DNA from: the human T2T-CHM13v2.0 reference genome, Homo sapiens
Assembly: GCF_009914755.1 (NCBI RefSeq)
Contig: NC_060936.1
Strand: one strand, 5' to 3'
Length of the DNA stretch: 64,000 nucleotides
The notes beneath the pieces are model-generated. The model was not told where the DNA came from, ran no database searches, and worked only from the letters and a program-made list of their open reading frames with translations. This document shows positions 807 through 38,322 of the stretch, in pieces (positions within the stretch are counted from its first letter, which is position 1; each line of letters starts with the position of its first letter). The translations under genes and the position numbers were made by a program.

Positions 807-3278
807 CTAGATTGTAATCCAGCCTGGGCAACAGAGTGAGACCCTGTCTCAAAATAAATAAAATAAAATAAACTCATTATAGGTGAACAGTGCCACTATA
901 TGTGCATGCCATTTGTGTGCTTTCTTTGCTGAAAAGTCTTCTTCAAACCCTCTGCCCACTTTTTAAATTTGGTTAACCTTCAACAACCTGGCATCTACTC
1001 CTGCTTCTATTAAAACTAACGTCTGAAATAATGAAATGCAGTGGATATAGTGAATCCTAACTAACAAGTCCAGTAGTATATTTTGGTTTATCTTCTCCTT
1101 GACCCTCCTGCAGTATTGGATGTCTTCAATAATCTTTTCTTGAAATGTTGTCTTACTTTGGTGTCCAGGACAGAATACGTTTCTGATTTTTCTGGAAGAT
1201 CTTTGATGACTTCCTTTTCTGGGTTGTAGTCTACCTCCTGCCGTTTCTAGGTGGTGGTTCAGTTCACATAGACTAGACCTCTGCCCTCTGCTTTACTTCT
1301 ACATTTTATTTCATGGCAACTATAATGTCTTCAAGAAAATTTCTAGATTAGCCAGGTGTGGTGGTGGGTGCTTGTAGTCCCAGCTACTCAGGAGGCTGAG
1401 GCATGAGAATCTACTGAACCTGGGAGGCACAGGCTGGAGTGAGCCAAGATTGCGCCACTGCACTCCAGCCTGGGGGACACAGTGAGACTCCATCTCTAAA
1501 AAAAAAAAAAAGAAGGAGGGAAAAAAAGAAATTTTATAGAAGGCAGTGAGATATCTGATGATGTCATCAAGAAACTGGTGTTATGTAAGCATGGTGAGAG
1601 CTGGAGCCGTGGGAAGGAAACTAAATGACAGGCCCTACCATAGTGGAGGGATGCAGCACTGTGAGAAGGGATGCAGCTAGGCAGGAGAGAAACACCCCTT
1701 TGATCTCTTCCTGGTGCCTCCCATTGGTTGAAACCAGAGGTTAGGAGAGTCTGTGTAAAACCGTCCATGTGGTCAGCAAAGGGTATGGGAATGAATCTGG
1801 GAGCAAATGAAAACTAGCCAATACATTCGGGGTCTAAAGCAAACATCTCACCATCTCACCGTGTTTTTTTTTTTTTTGAGTCAGAGTCTTTCTCTGTCAT
1901 CCAGGCTGGAGTTCAGTGGTGTGATCTCGGCTCACTGCAGCCTCCTGCCTCCCAGGTTGAAGCAATTCTCCTGCCTCAGCAACCCGAGTAGCTGGGATTA
2001 CAGGCACACACCACCACACCCGACTAATTTTTGTATTTTTAGTAGAGATGGGGTTTCATCATGTTGGCTAGGCTGGTCTTGAACTCCTGACTGCAAGTGA
2101 TCTGCCTGCCTCGGCCTCCCAGTGTTGGGATTATAGGCGTGAGCCACCACGTCCGGCCCTCACCATCTTTTGTGCCTAAATCATCTCCCTGTTTTAACTT
2201 CTGTGCCTCCATCAATGGCACCATTACTCTCCCAGCCTCTTAAGCTGGAACCTCAGAAATCACTCCAACTCCCTTCATGGATTTTTTTTTTTCCTGTTAG
2301 TAAATTCTTATCCCTTATTTGGCATTACCCATCTCATAGGATTGGACTGTTGAATCCTCTATAAATGTGAGACTTCACAATTTCATGGTACTTAACATCA
2401 CGGTTTAATTAAAATCCTCATGTGTGTACTTATCTCTTGAATGAGCATTTTCAGGGCAGGGTCTGTGCTTCATACTTCAAATCCTCATTGTGCCCCTCAG
2501 CATTCTGTCAGGGTAGGGACTCAGCAACGCTTGTAAAATAAATAAATGAATGATCTGTTCACGGTGGACATGGGCCTACAACTTGCCTGAATTCCTTGTC
2601 CAAATGACAGAATATGGCAACAGAGTCAACACATTTCACTAGTAAGTGGCAGCATCCACAATGATAACTTCCAAAGATGTTCAACACCAGCAAGCACATC
2701 ACTGCGACTTCAGTAACCATAGTAACAAGACTACAATAAGATCATAACCAGCTAGTCAGACTAATCTCTTTCTAGTGGAAATGACCAGTGAATTACTTTC
2801 TGTGTGGACTGGGTTACTCTAAAGAAGATTCTTTCTTTCTTGCTTGCTTTCTCTCTCTCTCTCTCTTTCTTTCTTTTCAGGATCTCACTCTGTCACTCGG
2901 GCTGGAGTGCAGTGGTGTAATCATAGCTCACTGCAGCCTTGAGGTCTGGGCTCAAGTGATCCTCCCACCTCAGCCTCCTGAGTAGCTGGGATGACAGGCA
3001 AGCACAACCATGCCCAGCTAATTAAATTTATTTATTTTTTTTGAGAGATGGGATCTCAGTATGTTGCCCAGGCTGGTCTCAAATCCTGGCCTCAAGTGAT
3101 CCCCCATCTCAGCTTCCCAAAGTGCTGGGAATACAGGTGTGAGCCACTGCACTTAATAATTTCTTTTTTTTTTTTAATTTTAGGGTAAATAGAGATGGGG
3201 TTTTGCTGTGTTGCCCAGGTTGGTCTCAAACCCCTGAGTTCACCTCAGCCTCCCAAAACACTGGGATTACAAGTGTGA

Positions 3279-3410
<132 letters not shown>

Positions 3411-3820
3411 TAGCTGGGATTACAGGCACATGCCACCATGCCCAGCTAATTTTTGTATTTTTAGTAGAGACAGGGTTTCATCATGCTGGTCAGGTTGGTC
3501 TTGAACTCCTGACCTCAAGTGATCCACCTGCCTCGGACTCCCAAAGTGTTGAGATTACAGGCGTGAGCCGCAGAACCTGGCTAAAAATTTTACATAAATA
3601 TAGTTGAGAATCAAAAAAACCTACTGCTAATAGTAAATATTTGCTTTCATGTATGATTGAAATGCATTTTAATATTCTTTTTGTTTTTAAAGTTTAGTTT
3701 TATTTTCTTAAACTATTATATTCTTAGTACAAAACATGTAAAAGAAGACAAAATCTCCTATAGCTCTCCCTGCTGCTTGTTTTCTCTGTAAATGTTTCAC
3801 CTTTGTTTTGTCTTTTGTAA

Positions 3821-11665: not shown

Positions 11666-12019
11666 CGTATATTAGTCTGTTCTCGCACTGCTAGTAAAGA
11701 CATACCTGAGACTGGGTAATTTATAAAGAAAAGAGGTTTAGTTGACTCAGTTCCGCATGGCTGGGAGGCCTCACTATCATGGCGGTAGACGAGTGAGGAG
11801 CAAAGGCATGTCTTTCACAGTGGCAGGCAAGAGAGCTTGTGCAGGGAAACTGCCCTTTATAAAACCATCAGATCTTGAGAGACTTATTCACTACCACAGG
11901 AATAGTATGGGTGAAAATGCCCTATGATTCAATTATCTCCACCTGTCCCTGCCCTTGACACCTGGGGATTATTACAATTCAAGGTGAGATTTGGGTGAGG
12001 ACACAGCCAAACCATATCA
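11666..12019 (-). mobile_element. MaLR solo LTR (THE1-type)
   Basis: The - strand begins TGATATGGTTTGGCTGTGT; ~350 bp; near-TSD GTTGG/GTTGT. Confidence 0.85.
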
Positions 12020-12415
12020 GTTGTGGTAGGGCCCATTGATCTACAAATGTGACTTGACCTCACTTTTGCATCCCTTCAAGGCTCAGCCACTGCCTCCCTC
12101 AGACATGTGGTAGAGGTTATCAGGTCCCTGTCTACCCACTTCCTCATGGTGACCCAATGGCAGGTCACACTCAATTACCTTTCACTTCCCCAAAAAGGAT
12201 GCTGAAAAGGGGTCTTTTGACTCTCTTCCAAGTCATCAAGGGAGGTCTGCACTGTTGAATTAGGCTAATTAGGCTACCATTACATCACCGTAGGCCTAGG
12301 TGCACTCTGCAGTGGTGTTCTCTCCATTTCAAAACAAGAAGTCAGGTTAAATCTGTCTTTACATATATTTTCTCTCTTCAACATAAACTGGGTTTTCACT
12401 TTTCTAATCAGCTAC

Positions 12416-12875
12416 TGATGCAGGATTTTTTATTCCTTACCACCACTAGGTCTGGGTTCTCATCTCACAACCAGGAAGAATTAGGCATGCAGACACTTGA
12501 AGAGTGAGTGGAGCAGAATTTATTAAGTGAAAGGAAAGCTCTCAGCAAAAAGAGGGGACCTGAAAGCAGTTTACTGGTTGCCCCCTTCACAGTTGAATAC
12601 CAGGGCTTAAGGCATGAATTTCTGGTGGCTCCACCCTGTCCTTCCAGTGCTGATGCAGGCCCTTGGACTGAGCAGCTCCATATTGATTTATTTCCCTTAC
12701 TGTGTATGTGTTAAGGAATGGAATTTTCCACTGCAGGCATGTTTAGGCAAGCTCCCCGTGCAAGTTCCCTTATCTGCACAAAACATCTGGTGTAAGCACT
12801 TGTAGGGTGGGTGGGAGGTTCTCCGGGGACCCTTCCCTTACTGTCTGCCTAAAGCAAGCTGGCTAACACTTATCA
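12416..12875 (-). mobile_element. ERV1 solo LTR, MER61-like
   Basis: TG...CA termini, 460 bp, 4-bp TSD CTAC (12412-12415 and 12876-12879). The - strand resembles recalled MER61 and carries the family's characteristic p53 site. Confidence 0.8.
12735..12754. promoter_or_regulatory. Perfect p53 response element AGGCATGTTT AGGCAAGCTC inside a MER61-like LTR
   Basis: 20/20 match to RRRCWWGYYY x2 with zero spacer; a third half-site GTGCAAGTTC lies at 12758-12767. Confidence 0.85.
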
Positions 12876-13270
12876 CTACAACCCCTTGAGTTTCAACAGG
12901 GAGAAGGAGCTATGTGTAAAGCAAGGGTCTTGGTGTCTAATCTCTTCCTGCACATCTTCTACACCCTGCACCACTAGACCGGAGGAAGGCTTCCCTCTGG
13001 GTAGACGTCCCTTTTAGAATTTTTGTTTTTCTTCCTTGACCTAAAGCTAGTTCTTCTCTTTCTTTTCCCTGAGGCAATAAACATCTCCTAGTCCCAAAGT
13101 GAGGAATGTTTGCAAGAACGGGAAAAAGTTTATAGAGAAAAAACTATTTGGGGAGGTACAACATTTATATCACCCTTTAACTATCAAATTTGAGTGTCTT
13201 CTGCTCCTCTTCTCTTTTTAGATTAATTATACAAAATCAAGAGTACATGTTTTTACATAGCTAAGATATA

Positions 13271-16877: not shown

Positions 16878-18734
16878 TCAATGAGATCTTTGTGAATGGG
16901 AGTATCATACTCAGTTTGTCTGCAGATAATGACAACTAAAACATGAACTGCACCTTGTAGGAATACCCTATGTAGAATTGTTGAAGTAAATAGAGATTTA
17001 TGATTAGCTAAACTGAGAAAGTCAGATCATATGAGTTCCTATATTCATGAGGTAATTTAGAAACTATTCATAAGGGGAAGGGAGAAAAAAAACCTGACCT
17101 CTTAAAACTTACAAGAATTTCTCACATTGTCATAATGGAAATTCCCAAATTTCTCAAATGTGCTTTTTTTCTTCATCTCTGGTAGCATGAAAGCATCTGC
17201 CAAAAAATATGAAACTTAAGATGTATTTAATGCCATTGCCCAAACTTGTAATAACTTGTAATAATCAGATTATCCTTAAAACAGTCAAGTGTCATTCCCA
17301 CAAAGGGCACTGGTGCTCTCTCCCTTTGAGTAATGAAAAATTTTAAACCTTTGCTTCTTCCTTCTGATGTCTGTACTCACAGGGTTTACAGTACCTTTTA
17401 TGAGGTGCTACTATGCTGCTGGTATGTACAAATGTATAGCATCAGATTCTATAGGTAATAGTGTCAAACTACTATCAAGCATGCATCTATCTGTACACAT
17501 GTTTTCAATAAACATGTATTAACCACTTATTTTGTGCTGGTGCTTGGCACTGGAAATAGAAATATGTAAGATTCAATTCCTGCTCACAACATTTAGAGTC
17601 TAGAGTCTATCCACTAGGTTGACAAGTTAACATTGTGAAATCTGTAATATAAAGAGCCTGAGGATACAGAGAAGTGACACAGAGGTCACACTTTGGGGCT
17701 GTTAGGAAGGGCTTCCTGAAGAAGGCCATTGCTGAGGAGAATACAATCCACAAGCATTTATTAAGTGCCTATGTCAAGCCCAGCTCCAAGCCTGGGTATA
17801 CAGTAGTGAATAAAGGAGAAAGATATTCCTACCTGCATGAAGCTTACATTCTAGGAGAATAACGTGAAGAAAGAACAGAAGCTTGCCAGATGAATGATCC
17901 ACAAAGAAATGAACAGTGTATCTTTGGAGGTTAGTTATATATAAGTAAGTATAGCTCAGAAAAGTCTCCAGCTCGCTGTGTAATCTCTGTCTTATCCAAA
18001 ACTCACTGAGAACATGTTGAAGTGTCCCCAGTTTCTATAGAGGAGTGCTTCCCTCCACACCAGCGAACAGGGCCTAGAATCCATTCACAGGTGAGGGGCC
18101 TCTGCCATGAAAAAGACATGTGCAGGCGCATATGTGCACTCAATCACAGAGACACACATGCACATGCACACACACAGGGTGAGCCATTCACATGGTGACC
18201 ACTGACACTGCACTGGCTAGTCCCAGTCTTGACATCCCCATTGTAACAATGCTCAATGCCAGAAGCAGGAATAGAAGGAAGAGATTCTACCTGGTCCCTA
18301 CCCACAAGAGCTCGTTTTAAGTTTCTTCCTGATCACAAAAGGGAGAGTAGATGTTGTAATATTCATGGTGCTTTTTAAAGAGAGAGTACACACTAGTATG
18401 TGTGCCCCTTTTGTTCAGAGCAATGGTTATGCACTCTCACTCAAATAAACTTAAGTGTTTCAAAGGACTCTTGGATGGAGGATGTAACATCTACTTGGGT
18501 GTAATGATCCCTATGATCTTGCAATGTAAAAATACAGTATCTTGATTTTTTTCAAAAGATATAAAGATGTGGGCGGGCTGTGGTGGTTCACACCCATAAT
18601 CCCACAAGTTTGAGAGGACAAGGTAAGAGGATTGCTTGAGCTCATAAGGTCAAGACCAGCCTGAGAAACACAGTGAGATGCTGTCTCTATTTAAAAAAAA
18701 ATATATATATATAAAGGTGTGGGTGTGAATGCAT

Positions 18735-34531: not shown

Positions 34532-34976
34532 GAGCCAGCGCGGTAGGGCCAGAGTGGGAAGGCCAGAGCGGGCGTCCCCGCCAGTGACCCCACGCCGCCC
34601 GTCCGCGCCCAACCCGGCCTCCGCCGAGTGTCCAAACCAAAAGCGAAAGGAACCCGACCCCGCGTCCCCTCCGGCGGCTCCGTAGTCGCGTCCGCTTGGA
34701 GCTCGCCGGGCGCCTCCGACCCTGCCGGGCCGCTTTGTGACTTCACTCGTTTCGCAACAAGCCCGGGCAGCCCGCGCCCCACCCACTCTGGCCCGGCAGC
34801 CTCGCCGCCCGCAGCCTCGCTCCGCTCCTCGCGCTTCCCCTCCCTCCGGGGCTGGGCCTGCCCCGGCCGTCGCGGAGCCTCCCCTCCCACCGTCCGTGAG
34901 TGTACGCGCCCGGCCGCCGCCTCCAGGCAGCCCGGAGCAACCCGGCGCCCGGCCCCGCTGGGCGCAGCACTCCGTC

Positions 34977-34991
34977 GGCGGCGGCGGCGGC
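34977..34991 (+). repeat. (GGC)5 immediately upstream of the DRAM1 ATG
   Basis: Read directly from sequence. Confidence 0.9.
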
Positions 34992-34994
34992 GCG

Positions 34995-35125
34995 ATGCTG
35001 TGCTTCCTGAGGGGAATGGCTTTCGTCCCCTTCCTCTTGGTGACCTGGTCGTCAGCCGCCTTCATTATCTCCTACGTGGTCGCCGTGCTCTCCGGGCACG
35101 TCAACCCCTTCCTCCCGTATATCAG
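34995..35125 (+). CDS. DRAM1: DRAM1 coding exon 1 ([44 protein letters not shown]), DNA damage-regulated autophagy modulator 1
   Basis: ATG at 34995 within the CpG island. The translation matches the DRAM1 N-terminus as I recall it. 131 nt ending at donor CAG|GTGAGT, and it joins exon 2 in frame. Confidence 0.97.
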
Positions 35126-36817: not shown

Positions 36818-36982
36818 TAGGCTTGGTTTCTCATGGCACATCTCAGGCCCAAGTGCCATCATCTTGCTTCTGAAGCAGGATAGATCCTTCTAGACTTGTG
36901 TAAAAGTAAAGACCTGCTCAGCTGGGCACAGTGGCTCACGCCTGTAATCCCAGCACTTTGGGAGGCCGAGGCTGGCGGATCA

Positions 36983-37225
<243 letters not shown>

Positions 37226-38322
37226 CTACCTGCAGTGCTGCTTCTTTTGTTTGTTTGTTTGTTTGTTTTTTCAGACAAAGTCTCGCTCTGTTGCCCAGTC
37301 TGTGGTGTGGTGGTGGGATCACAGCTCACTGCAGCCTCGACCTCCTGGGCTCCATTGATCCTCCCACCTCAGCCTCCTGAATAGCTGGGGACTGTAGATA
37401 GGCATGCACAACCATGCCCAGCTAATTTTTAATTTTTTTTTGTATTTGTAGAGATGGCATCTTGCTGTGTCCTGCAATGCTTCCTTTTTTTTTTTTTTTT
37501 TTTTTTTTTTAAGACAGAGTCTTGCTCTGTCGCCCAGGCTGGAGTGCAGTGGTGCAATCTCGGCTCAGTGCAACCTCCACCTCCTGGTTCAAGCAATTCT
37601 CCTGACTCAGCCTCCCAAGTAGCTGGGATTACAGGCACCTGCCACCACGCCCAGCTAATATTTTTGTATTTTTAGTAGAGACGGGGTTTCACCATGTTGG
37701 CCAGGCTGGTCTCAAGCTCCTGACCTCAGATGATCCACCTGCCTCAGCCTCCTAAAGTGTTGGGATTACAGGCGTGAGCCACCACACCCAGCCTGCAGTG
37801 CTTCTTATTGAGAAAACAGTAGTCATGTTTGTCCCAGATCTGAAGGTTGAGGACAGATAATACGTGATATTCATTGGCCAGGCTGTCAAAGGCAGGTTTT
37901 GAATGTTCATAGAGGTGTCTGATGTAGTTGTGATTAATATCACTCTAAGGTGAACTTGAAATGGGAGACATTCAGAAATGGGAAAATAAGCTGACAAGGT
38001 GAACCACTTATGAGATGCTCAAATCACAGACCCTACAAGGACGGGGTTTAAAATTTAACAAGGAAGCCTTCAGGAAAAGCAGAATTACAGGAGAAAAAGG
38101 CATGCCCCCTTGTTGCCAGGAGTTCTCAGCCAACACACAACAAACATTTGTACTGATTGCCCATGTGTGCCTGGGTCTTTTAGGTTGTTTGCTCTCTGCT
38201 TACCTGAGCAGCCGGAGCACTGGATTGCCCCTGCCCGCTCCTAGAAAACAAGTCCTTGGTGCAGCAACAAGATGTGGATAAGAACCACACATAGAGAAGA
38301 AGGCTGGGTGCAGTCTCTACTA

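What the first reader, a model, noticed from the sequence alone, without database searches (positions are those of the whole stretch)
12416..12875. MER61-like solo LTR with a perfect p53 element beside a kB-like site: candidate ERV-derived DRAM1 enhancer
Seen: AGGCATGTTT-AGGCAAGCTC (12735-12754) is a mismatch-free, zero-spacer p53 element, the best I found in the window. A third half-site follows (12758-12767), GGAATTTTCC (kB-like, 12720-12729) sits 5 bp upstream, and a GATA motif (CTTATCT, ~12769) sits downstream. All lie in an intact TSD-flanked LTR. Established: MER61 and LTR10 families supply many primate p53 sites; DRAM1 is a p53 target and is also reported to be NF-kB-inducible. Inference: this LTR, ~22 kb upstream of the ATG, may be a primate-specific p53/NF-kB enhancer of DRAM1, while the promoter itself shows only degenerate p53 sites.
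Basis: partly seen in the sequence, partly recalled or inferred. Interest (0 to 1): 0.72.

Follow-up and report, generated by a model that had tools for sequence, protein, structure and literature searches.

The report
Old retroviral LTR carrying p53 site
A 460-base leftover end (solo LTR) of a retrovirus that entered primate DNA roughly 40-70 million years ago lies 22 kb upstream of DRAM1, still carries the perfect p53 docking site typical of its family, and sits inside a stretch already catalogued as a candidate DRAM1 enhancer.

Summary
Window 12416-12875 is a real solo LTR. It has TG..CA ends and a CTAC duplication on both sides. At least 39 other genomic places match it, 15 of them over its full length. 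AGGCATGTTTAGGCAAGCTC (12735-12754) is the only mismatch-free p53 20-mer in the window.

The site is inherited, not chance. It is perfect at the same columns in 12 of 30 copies. It aligns with the validated p53 element of the PURPL MER61C LTR.

The LTR belongs to the MER61 group, but it is neither MER61C nor the printed MER61E type. The subfamily letter is unresolved. Its sense strand is the window's minus strand. Its age is about 42-47 Myr at 2.2e-9 per site per year, or 62-69 Myr at 1.5e-9.

RefSeq lists a CRISPRi-targeted candidate enhancer over 12496-13172. A published reanalysis reports that repressing a site mapping here lowers DRAM1 in K562 cells. That supports an enhancer region, but not p53 or NF-kB dependence.

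Verdict: a well-founded new instance of a known kind, of moderate interest.

The parts
12412..12415 (.). Left copy of the 4-base target-site duplication (CTAC)
   Evidence: 10 of 16 full-length family copies show a perfect 4-base duplication.
12416..12875 (-). Solo LTR, 460 bases, MER61 group (ERV1). Its sense strand is the window's minus strand.
   Evidence: Searches show the family copies share these ends. Searches show an antisense, end-to-end alignment with the PURPL and PINCR MER61C LTRs. One search shows a purine run beside the LTR end of a proviral copy.
12876..12879 (.). Right copy of the target-site duplication (CTAC)
12626..12875 (-). U3 part of the LTR. The bound is approximate and inferred.
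   Evidence: The annotated PURPL and PINCR starts of transcription align to window 12625 and 12598.
12416..12625 (-). R-U5 part of the LTR. The bound is approximate and inferred. It holds AATAAA on the minus strand at 12519-12524.
12735..12754 (.). Perfect zero-spacer p53 response element, at LTR sense positions 122-141
   Evidence: It is perfect at the same columns in 12 of 30 copies. It aligns with the perfect element of the PURPL MER61C LTR, comparator position 120 to window position 120.
12758..12767 (.). Third p53 half-site with one mismatch, 3 bases after the full site
   Evidence: It has one mismatch in 19 of 30 copies and is perfect in none.
12720..12729 (.). kB-like decamer GGAATTTTCC, fitting the loose consensus only
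   Evidence: The loose pattern is kept in 14 of 30 copies.
12769..12775 (-). GATA motif (AGATAAG on the minus strand)
   Evidence: It is kept in 18 of 30 copies.
12784..12789 (-). E-box (CAGATG on the minus strand), 8 bases from the GATA motif
   Evidence: The exact E-box is in 15 of 30 copies. The whole pair with its spacing is kept in 8 of 30.
12496..13172 (.). RefSeq functional element 'candidate enhancer chr12.3153 targeted for multiplex CRISPR interference'. It covers 380 bases of the LTR and 297 bases of flank.
   Evidence: It is one of only 29 such features on chr12.
12026..12243 (.). Neighbouring RefSeq element 'candidate enhancer chr12.3152', which is non-LTR DNA
12017..12516 (.). RefSeq 'H3K27ac-H3K4me1 hESC enhancer'. 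It overlaps the last 101 bases (U5 side) of the LTR.
34785..35125 (+). DRAM1 exon 1 (start of transcription at 34785, ATG at 34995), the presumed target
   Evidence: The gene table given with the finding.

Best explanation
Window 12416-12875 is a solo LTR. It was left when the two LTRs of a gamma-like (ERV1) provirus of the MER61 group recombined. The insertion dates to roughly 40-70 million years ago. It lies antisense to DRAM1, 22 kb upstream.

The perfect p53 element, the extra half-site, the kB-like decamer and the GATA/E-box pair all sit in its U3 region. All were brought in by the virus as family features. This copy has kept the p53 element intact.

The LTR now makes up more than half of an accessible, acetylated stretch catalogued as a candidate enhancer. 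Published CRISPR interference in K562 cells links that stretch to DRAM1 expression. In K562 the activity must run on factors other than p53, and the GATA/E-box pair is the best sequence candidate (inferred).

In p53-competent cells the element very probably binds p53, as many MER61 copies do. It may add to DRAM1 induction (inferred, not shown).
For: Real LTR:
- 39 other places match it, from 761 first-look candidates. 15 others match over positions 1-460.
- It has TG..CA ends. A 4-base duplication is present in 10 of 16 full-length copies.
- Two same-strand pairs lie 6-7 kb apart, as expected of proviruses.

MER61 group:
- It aligns end to end with the LTRs at the PURPL and PINCR promoters, which PMC5732690 names MER61C. 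Identity is 255/436 and 266/371.
- The interior of the X-chromosome pair is 76% identical over 1367 nt to the DNA downstream of the PURPL LTR.
- The same p53/half-site/GATA module occurs in the chr13 copy named MER61E in PMC3308033.

Inherited p53 element:
- At the same columns, 12 of 30 copies are perfect and 6 more have one mismatch.
- It is positionally homologous to the perfect element of the PURPL LTR. That element is p53-responsive in reporter assays.

Age:
- Mean pairwise K2P distance is 0.207 over 406 pairs, or 0.187 without CpG sites.
- LTR-pair distances are 0.177 and 0.208.
- The LTR has 2 CpG where 25.8 are expected.
- Print gives 40-63 Myr for these families.

Enhancer:
- RefSeq elements overlap it.
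- PMC6979386 reports reduced DRAM1 on repression of the site.
- Candidates in that screen were K562 DNase-hypersensitive sites with H3K27ac, p300, GATA1 or Pol II.
- PMC4033189 reports a p53 element near DRAM1 with p53-dependent bidirectional enhancer RNAs. Its place is not given in the text.
Against: - No occupancy, contact or expression data could be read here.
- KRAB spreads over 1-2 kb. The published effect therefore cannot be pinned on the LTR rather than on its flanks or on chr12.3152.
- K562 lacks functional p53 (recalled).
- I placed the hg19 gRNA site in the window using gene coordinates recalled from memory. Two anchors give 12696-12719 and 12509-12532. Both are inside the LTR, but the mapping is not verified.
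- The subfamily letter is unresolved.
- 11 open pieces of the gag/pol side of one proviral copy gave no retroviral Pfam family.
- No primer-binding site could be read in the family's own proviruses.
- The RefSeq repeat-mask table does not mask the LTR. It masks none of the 3 chr12 copies and only 23% of chr12, so this counts for little.
Confidence: 0.7

Rival explanations
1. The LTR is a passenger. The DRAM1 enhancer activity lies in the adjacent non-LTR DNA (12026-12243, or 12876-13172), and the LTR merely falls inside the repressed zone.
For: - KRAB-based interference acts over 1-2 kb.
- RefSeq lists a second targeted candidate, chr12.3152, 173 bases from the LTR. Element chr12.3153 includes 297 non-LTR bases.
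- The hESC enhancer element overlaps only 101 LTR bases.
- GATA motifs are not enriched in the LTR. It has 2 in 460 bases against 1.89 per kb in the window.
Against: - The LTR makes up 380 of the 677 bases of chr12.3153.
- Both of my (recalled) mappings of the published gRNA site fall inside it.
- MER61-group LTRs are repeatedly reported as accessible, STARR-active elements.
Confidence: 0.25
2. The p53 element is bound by p53 but contributes nothing to DRAM1 induction. Induction would run through promoter-proximal or intron-1 sites, and the LTR site is one of many bound but idle MER61 sites.
For: [quoted passage not shown]
- Candidate two-mismatch sites exist in intron 1, at 36892-36919 and 37400-37419.
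- The original DRAM paper placed a p53 site within the gene. This is recalled; the paper is not held.
Against: - PMC4033189 describes a p53 element near DRAM1 that makes p53-dependent bidirectional enhancer RNAs. This could be the LTR site.
- The region affects DRAM1 in K562.
- The LTR site is the only perfect element in 64 kb.
Confidence: 0.35
3. The LTR works mainly as an NF-kB-responsive enhancer of DRAM1 through GGAATTTTCC.
For: - The decamer fits GGRRNNYYCC and is kept in 14 of 30 copies.
- DRAM1 induction through MYD88 and NF-kB is reported (recalled; no call).
Against: - The stricter GGGRNWYYCC consensus is not met.
- The loose pattern occurs 9 times in the window.
- No occupancy data were available.
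Confidence: 0.1
4. There is no repeat here. The TG..CA ends, the CTAC repeat and the p53 20-mer are chance features of unique DNA, as the absence of repeat masking might suggest.
For: The RefSeq mask table has no masked stretch between 12026 and 13268.
Against: - 39 other matching places exist, 15 of them full length.
- Copies share their ends and the 4-base duplication.
- The mask table misses all 3 chr12 copies and covers only 23% of chr12.
Confidence: 0.01

Closest known systems
MER61C LTR that forms the p53-responsive promoter of PURPL/LINC01021, and the similar one at PINCR (PMC5732690)
   Same: - The LTRs are homologous end to end.
- A perfect p53 element sits at the same LTR position (120 against 120-122 of about 440-460).
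- Both are of ERV1 origin.
- Proviral relatives have homologous interiors.
   Different: - The subfamily differs. K2P distance is 0.48-0.62 to the window's family, against 0.31 between the two MER61C copies and about 0.2 within the window's family.
- Those LTRs act as promoters in sense.
- This one is a distal element, antisense to DRAM1, with no annotated transcript.
MER61E copy at hg19 chr13:52641535-52641585, one of the original p53-binding clones (PMC3308033, Table 1)
   Same: It has the same module of p53 element, mismatched half-site and GATA motif. Identity is 82-89% over about 47 bases to family copies.
   Different: - That copy has a 1-base spacer in the element and is split by about 600 bases of other DNA.
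- K2P distance to the window's family is about 0.59.
- Its own 39 relatives (76-83% identity) lie at other places than the window family's 39.
- I located it through recalled hg19 gene offsets.
LTR10/MER61 p53 network of primates (Wang et al. 2007, seen only as cited in PMC5732690, PMC10474299 and PMC12129084)
   Same: A primate ERV1 LTR family whose ancestral sequence carried a p53 element and spread it through the genome. Print gives 53.4% of MER61C and 35.4% of MER61E copies with an element. Here 13 of the 30 best copies are perfect.
   Different: This particular copy and its link to DRAM1 appear in none of the papers searched. One search found 0 papers holding both DRAM1 and MER61. One search found 2, both irrelevant.
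K562 CRISPRi-mapped distal enhancers (Gasperini et al.; preprint 10.1101/314344; reanalysis PMC6979386)
   Same: The region is one of the targeted candidates and is reported to lower DRAM1 when repressed.
   Different: The passages I read from those papers do not mention the LTR origin or the p53 element. The pairing tables are in supplements that I could not open.

Membership tests
Retroviral solo LTR (class I / ERV1) | TG...CA termini shared by dispersed copies that have the same two ends | tested here: met
   All 16 full-length copies start with TG and end with CA. 15 others match query positions 1-460.
Retroviral solo LTR (class I / ERV1) | 4-base target-site duplication directly flanking the LTR. 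That ERV1 makes 4 bases is recalled knowledge. | tested here: met
   CTAC lies on both sides here. The duplication is perfect in 10 of 16 copies and matches at 3 of 4 bases in 4 more.
Retroviral solo LTR (class I / ERV1) | Copies occur as same-strand pairs around an interior, with a purine tract beside the 3' LTR | tested here: met
   There are two such pairs, on C5 and on C23. Their interiors are homologous to each other and to the PURPL interior. A purine run lies next to one LTR.
Retroviral solo LTR (class I / ERV1) | The interior encodes recognisable gag or pol domains | tested here: inconclusive
   5 plus 6 open pieces, searched apart, gave no retroviral Pfam family at E <= 0.01. The pieces are short and decayed.
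Retroviral solo LTR (class I / ERV1) | Primer-binding site after the 5' LTR | tested here: inconclusive
   Both proviral 5' LTRs of the family are truncated or interrupted at that end.
MER61 group of LTRs | Sequence homology over the whole LTR to copies that print names MER61 | tested here: met
   Query 1-457 aligns to the PURPL LTR and query 1-431 to the PINCR LTR. Global identity is 255/436 and 266/371. There are partial matches to the chr13 MER61E copy.
MER61 group of LTRs | Assignment by the Dfam/RepeatMasker library | not testable with these tools
   No repeat library is on hand. The mask table carries no family names.
MER61C subfamily | Distance to named MER61C copies no larger than the distance among them | tested here: not met
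   K2P distance is 0.48-0.62 to the family, against 0.31 between PURPL and PINCR.
MER61E subfamily (as represented by the chr13 copy) | Shares its nearest genomic relatives with the named copy | tested here: not met
   0 of the 39 relatives of the chr13 copy coincide with the 39 of the window LTR. K2P distance is about 0.59. This rests on one degraded comparator.
p53 response element | Two RRRCWWGYYY decamers with a spacer of 0-13 bases | tested here: met
   No mismatch and no spacer.
p53 response element | Occupancy by p53 in cells | not testable with these tools
   No ChIP-seq data are on hand. The text of the papers read gives no peak coordinates for this site.
NF-kB site | Match to GGGRNWYYCC | tested here: not met
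   GGAATTTTCC has A at the third base. Only GGRRNNYYCC is met.
Distal enhancer of DRAM1 | Lies in a catalogued regulatory element, and perturbing it changes DRAM1 | tested here: inconclusive
   RefSeq element chr12.3153 overlaps it. DRAM1 falls on repression of the site in K562. However, the resolution is 1-2 kb, my coordinate mapping uses recalled numbers, and the supplements are closed.

The most novel reading that the evidence does not exclude
This MER61-group LTR is itself the p53 element near DRAM1 that makes p53-dependent enhancer RNAs. It would therefore be a primate-only route by which a core autophagy target is wired to p53. The same U3 would be used in erythroid-type cells through its GATA/E-box pair. 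One viral promoter-enhancer would then serve one host gene under two unrelated signals.
Probability: 0.3. Interest if true: 0.6.

Novelty: new member of a known kind. Interest (0 to 1): 0.42.

Why it matters
DRAM1 is a textbook p53 target. PMC5511239 lists it in its table of p53 target genes with a score of 9. If part of its control comes from a primate-specific LTR, then p53-driven autophagy is wired differently in primates and in rodent models. The locus would also be a clean, single-copy example of a viral U3 reused as a distal enhancer. None of the papers I could search links DRAM1 to a MER61 element. The kind itself, MER61/LTR10 LTRs supplying p53 sites, is well established.

Tried and rejected
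Things tried that led nowhere or were rejected:

1. Subfamily letter. MER61C and the printed MER61E type were both tested and rejected. Print names C, D and E as the p53-rich subfamilies, which makes D a candidate by elimination.

2. Core gene. Open pieces from the gag/pol side of one proviral copy gave no retroviral Pfam family. A below-cutoff GCSF match is taken as chance.

3. Primer-binding site. It is not readable in the family's own proviruses.

4. Short and long forms (453-460 against 497-516 bases) as two subfamilies. Rejected, because within-group and between-group distances are equal.

5. The repeat-mask table as evidence against a repeat. Rejected.

6. A printed p53 peak at this place. 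None was found in the main texts. The supplements that may hold it were closed. These are the p53 peak tables of PMC4287438 and PMC4033189 and the pair tables of the K562 screen.

7. PAM check of my gRNA mapping. NGG or CCN lies 2-3 bases off the predicted interval, which decides nothing.

Full report
THE OBSERVATION

- AGGCATGTTT-AGGCAAGCTC lies at 12735-12754.
- GTGCAAGTTC lies at 12758-12767 and has one mismatch to RRRCWWGYYY.
- GGAATTTTCC lies at 12720-12729.
- CTTATCT lies at 12769-12775.
- The LTR starts with TG at 12416 and ends with CA at 12875, with CTAC on both sides.

The 20-mer is the only mismatch-free zero-spacer p53 element on either strand of the window. Shuffles give 0.01 expected, and 1 of 100 shuffles reached one match. 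With up to two mismatches there are 4 matches against 3.47 expected. With spacers 0-13 and up to two mismatches there are 11 half-site pairs, and only this one is perfect.

IS IT A REPEAT?

The RefSeq mask table has no masked stretch between 12026 and 13268. Taken alone, that would argue against an LTR. A search of the whole reference with the 460 bases settles the question.
- There were 761 first-look candidates, of which 40 were scored.
- 39 places besides the window itself match at 75-85% identity.
- 15 of them match over query positions 1-460.

Among the 16 full-length copies:
- All start with TG and end with CA.
- 14 share the window copy's first six bases.
- 15 share one six-base end, from which the window copy differs at two positions.
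- 10 have a perfect 4-base duplication. That is 9 of 15 independent insertions, because L018 and L021 are one duplicated insertion.
- 4 more match at 3 of 4 bases, and 2 do not match.

The mask table fails for the whole family. 0 of 3 chr12 copies are masked, and only 23% of chr12 is masked in stretches of 100 bases or more. The duplication touches the LTR on both sides, so this is a solo LTR.

ORIENTATION AND FAMILY

PMC5732690 (passages) states that the LINC01021 (now PURPL) promoter and its p53 site lie in a MER61C LTR, and that PINCR has a similar one.

I fetched both promoters using the RefSeq gene starts. The window LTR aligns with them end to end, but on the opposite strand.
- Query 1-457 aligns to L031 996-563.
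- Query 1-431 aligns to L032 980-571.
- Global identity is 255/436 and 266/371.

The LTR's sense strand is therefore the window's minus strand, antisense to DRAM1. A purine run next to the LTR end of a proviral copy agrees with this.

The annotated PURPL and PINCR starts align to about window 12625 and 12598. AATAAA on the minus strand lies at 12519-12524. The approximate layout is U3 at 12875 down to about 12626 and R-U5 down to 12416 (inferred).

The PURPL LTR has a perfect p53 20-mer at sense position 120, which aligns to window sense position 120. The window element starts at 122.

Two same-strand LTR pairs look like proviruses.
- The 5' interior of the X-chromosome pair is 76% identical over 1367 nt, plus 78% over 120 nt, to the DNA just downstream of the PURPL LTR.
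- Print calls that DNA MER61 internal sequence.
- The C5 pair shares 709 nt (78%) with the X pair and 119 nt (81%) with PURPL.

This supports membership of the MER61 group.

WHICH SUBFAMILY?

It is not MER61C. K2P distance to the family is 0.48-0.62, against 0.31 between the two MER61C copies and about 0.2 within the family.

PMC3308033 (whole text) names a MER61E copy at hg19 chr13:52641535-52641585.
- I placed it in T2T using recalled hg19 gene offsets. An LTR with a p53-like site lay exactly at the predicted spot.
- It has the same p53/half-site/GATA module, at 82-89% identity over about 47 bases. Its element has a one-base spacer.
- The LTR is in two pieces around about 600 bases of other DNA. 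I compared the pieces apart.
- K2P distance to the window's family is about 0.59.
- Its own relatives are 39 other places at 76-83% identity. None coincides with the 39 places.

The window's family is therefore a third MER61-group subfamily.

PMC5753468 (passages) ties MER61C to MER61I, MER61D to MER51I/HERV4_I, and MER61A, B, E and F to HUERS-P3. PMC12129084 and PMC10474299 (passages) name C, D and E as the p53-linked subfamilies. I cannot give the letter.

Copies of 497-516 bases (7 of 30) differ from the 406-464-base ones by 8+31 extra columns after LTR position 192. The two forms are not separated by distance: 0.205 and 0.214 within, 0.210 between.

AGE

- Over 406 pairs of 29 copies (duplicate dropped), mean K2P distance is 0.207, or 0.187 without CpG sites.
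- The window copy against 28 others averages 0.191.
- The LTR pairs give 0.177 (256 nt) and 0.208 (406 nt).
- The window LTR has 2 CpG where 25.8 are expected.

Half the pairwise distance gives 42-47 Myr at 2.2e-9 per site per year and 62-69 Myr at 1.5e-9. The rates are recalled. Print gives 40-63 Myr for these families (citing Wang 2007, which is not held). Orthology in other primates could not be tested here.

ARE THE MOTIFS FAMILY FEATURES?

At the homologous columns of 30 copies:
- p53 20-mer: 0 mismatches in 12, 1 in 6, 2 in 6, 3 in 2, and changed length in 4.
- Anywhere in the LTR, 13 of 30 copies have a perfect site. That is 11 of 28 without the window copy and the duplicate.
- Third half-site: one mismatch in 19 copies, perfect in none.
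- Loose kB pattern: kept in 14 copies.
- GATA motif: kept in 18 copies.

The E-box 8 bases from the GATA motif is exact in 15 of 30 copies. The pair with its spacing is kept in 8 of 30. The 30 copies are the best-scoring ones, so these shares are biased towards close relatives. The module came in with the virus.

ENHANCER EVIDENCE

RefSeq lists three overlapping or neighbouring elements:
- 'candidate enhancer chr12.3153 targeted for multiplex CRISPR interference' at 12496-13172.
- chr12.3152 at 12026-12243.
- An 'H3K27ac-H3K4me1 hESC enhancer' at 12017-12516.

Only 29 such CRISPRi features exist on chr12, and these two are the only ones between 100 and 104 Mb. From this I infer that RefSeq holds a selected subset.

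PMC6979386 (passages) reanalysed the K562 screen. It reports that 'chr12:102249040-102249063' is intergenic between GNPTAB and DRAM1 and has strong H3K27ac. It is among the top hits lowering DRAM1, but not GNPTAB.

The preprint of the screen (10.1101/314344, passages) shows three things.
- Coordinates are hg19.
- Candidates are K562 DNase sites with H3K27ac, p300, GATA1 or Pol II.
- KRAB acts over 1-2 kb.

With recalled hg19 anchors, the site maps to window 12696-12719 (DRAM1 start) or 12509-12532 (GNPTAB end). Both intervals are inside the LTR.

PMC4033189 (passages) reports a p53 element near DRAM1 with p53-dependent bidirectional enhancer RNAs. The text gives no place.

EVIDENCE AGAINST A p53 ROLE

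- K562 lacks working p53 (recalled).
- PMC4287438 (passages) says that binding at MER61, LTR10B and MLT1H elements is generally not tied to transactivation of neighbouring genes.
- The strict kB consensus fails.

NOVELTY

No paper in the library holds both DRAM1 and MER61. The search for DRAM1 with p53, LTR and enhancer gave 2 irrelevant papers. The kind is well known, and this instance appears undescribed. It is a new member of a known kind, of moderate interest.

Noticed in passing
window 12769-12789 (minus strand): An E-box (CAGATG) lies 8 bases from AGATAAG inside the LTR's U3. This spacing recalls the GATA1/TAL1 composite sites of erythroid enhancers (recalled). The pair is kept in 8 of 30 family copies. 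It could explain activity in K562.
   Followed up: partly
window 2996-3015 and 37400-37419: Two nearly identical two-mismatch p53-like 20-mers. The first lies in a masked stretch (2824-3574). The second lies in DRAM1 intron 1. They look like copies of one common repeat, probably Alu-derived (recalled, not tested).
   Followed up: partly
window 17477-17519: Three CATG-core half-sites, each with one mismatch, with spacers of 8 and 5 bases. They lie about 250 bases from RefSeq 'active region_6867' (17064-17233).
   Followed up: no
chr12 mask table; window 12026-13268: The RefSeq soft-mask table misses this LTR family entirely (0 of 3 chr12 copies) and covers only 23% of chr12. Absence from it is therefore no evidence of unique DNA.
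   Followed up: yes
L018 and L021 (G000 C6:57330830-57331326 and C6:61556229-61556725); also C21, C14, C13, C9 and C4 places: One family copy is duplicated with its flanks on chr6 (K2P 0.023, identical flanks). Eight partial copies (query 100-452) lie at places on C21, C14, C13, C9 and C4. Three of them have identical scores, which suggests segmental duplications.
   Followed up: partly
L031 997-1020 and L032 981-1003: The stretches that follow the two MER61C LTRs, where a primer-binding site is expected, differ from each other at many positions. No tRNA was assigned.
   Followed up: no
G000 C7:88572470-88572720 and C7:88580397-88580642: Two same-strand relatives of the chr13 MER61E copy lie 7.9 kb apart, as for a provirus of that subfamily. 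They were not fetched.
   Followed up: no
L020 (G000 C5:165510492-165511897), left flank: The 5' LTR of the C5 proviral copy lacks its last 30 bases and abuts unrelated repeat-like DNA. Its interior is about 1.7 kb longer than that of the X copy before the shared segment.
   Followed up: partly
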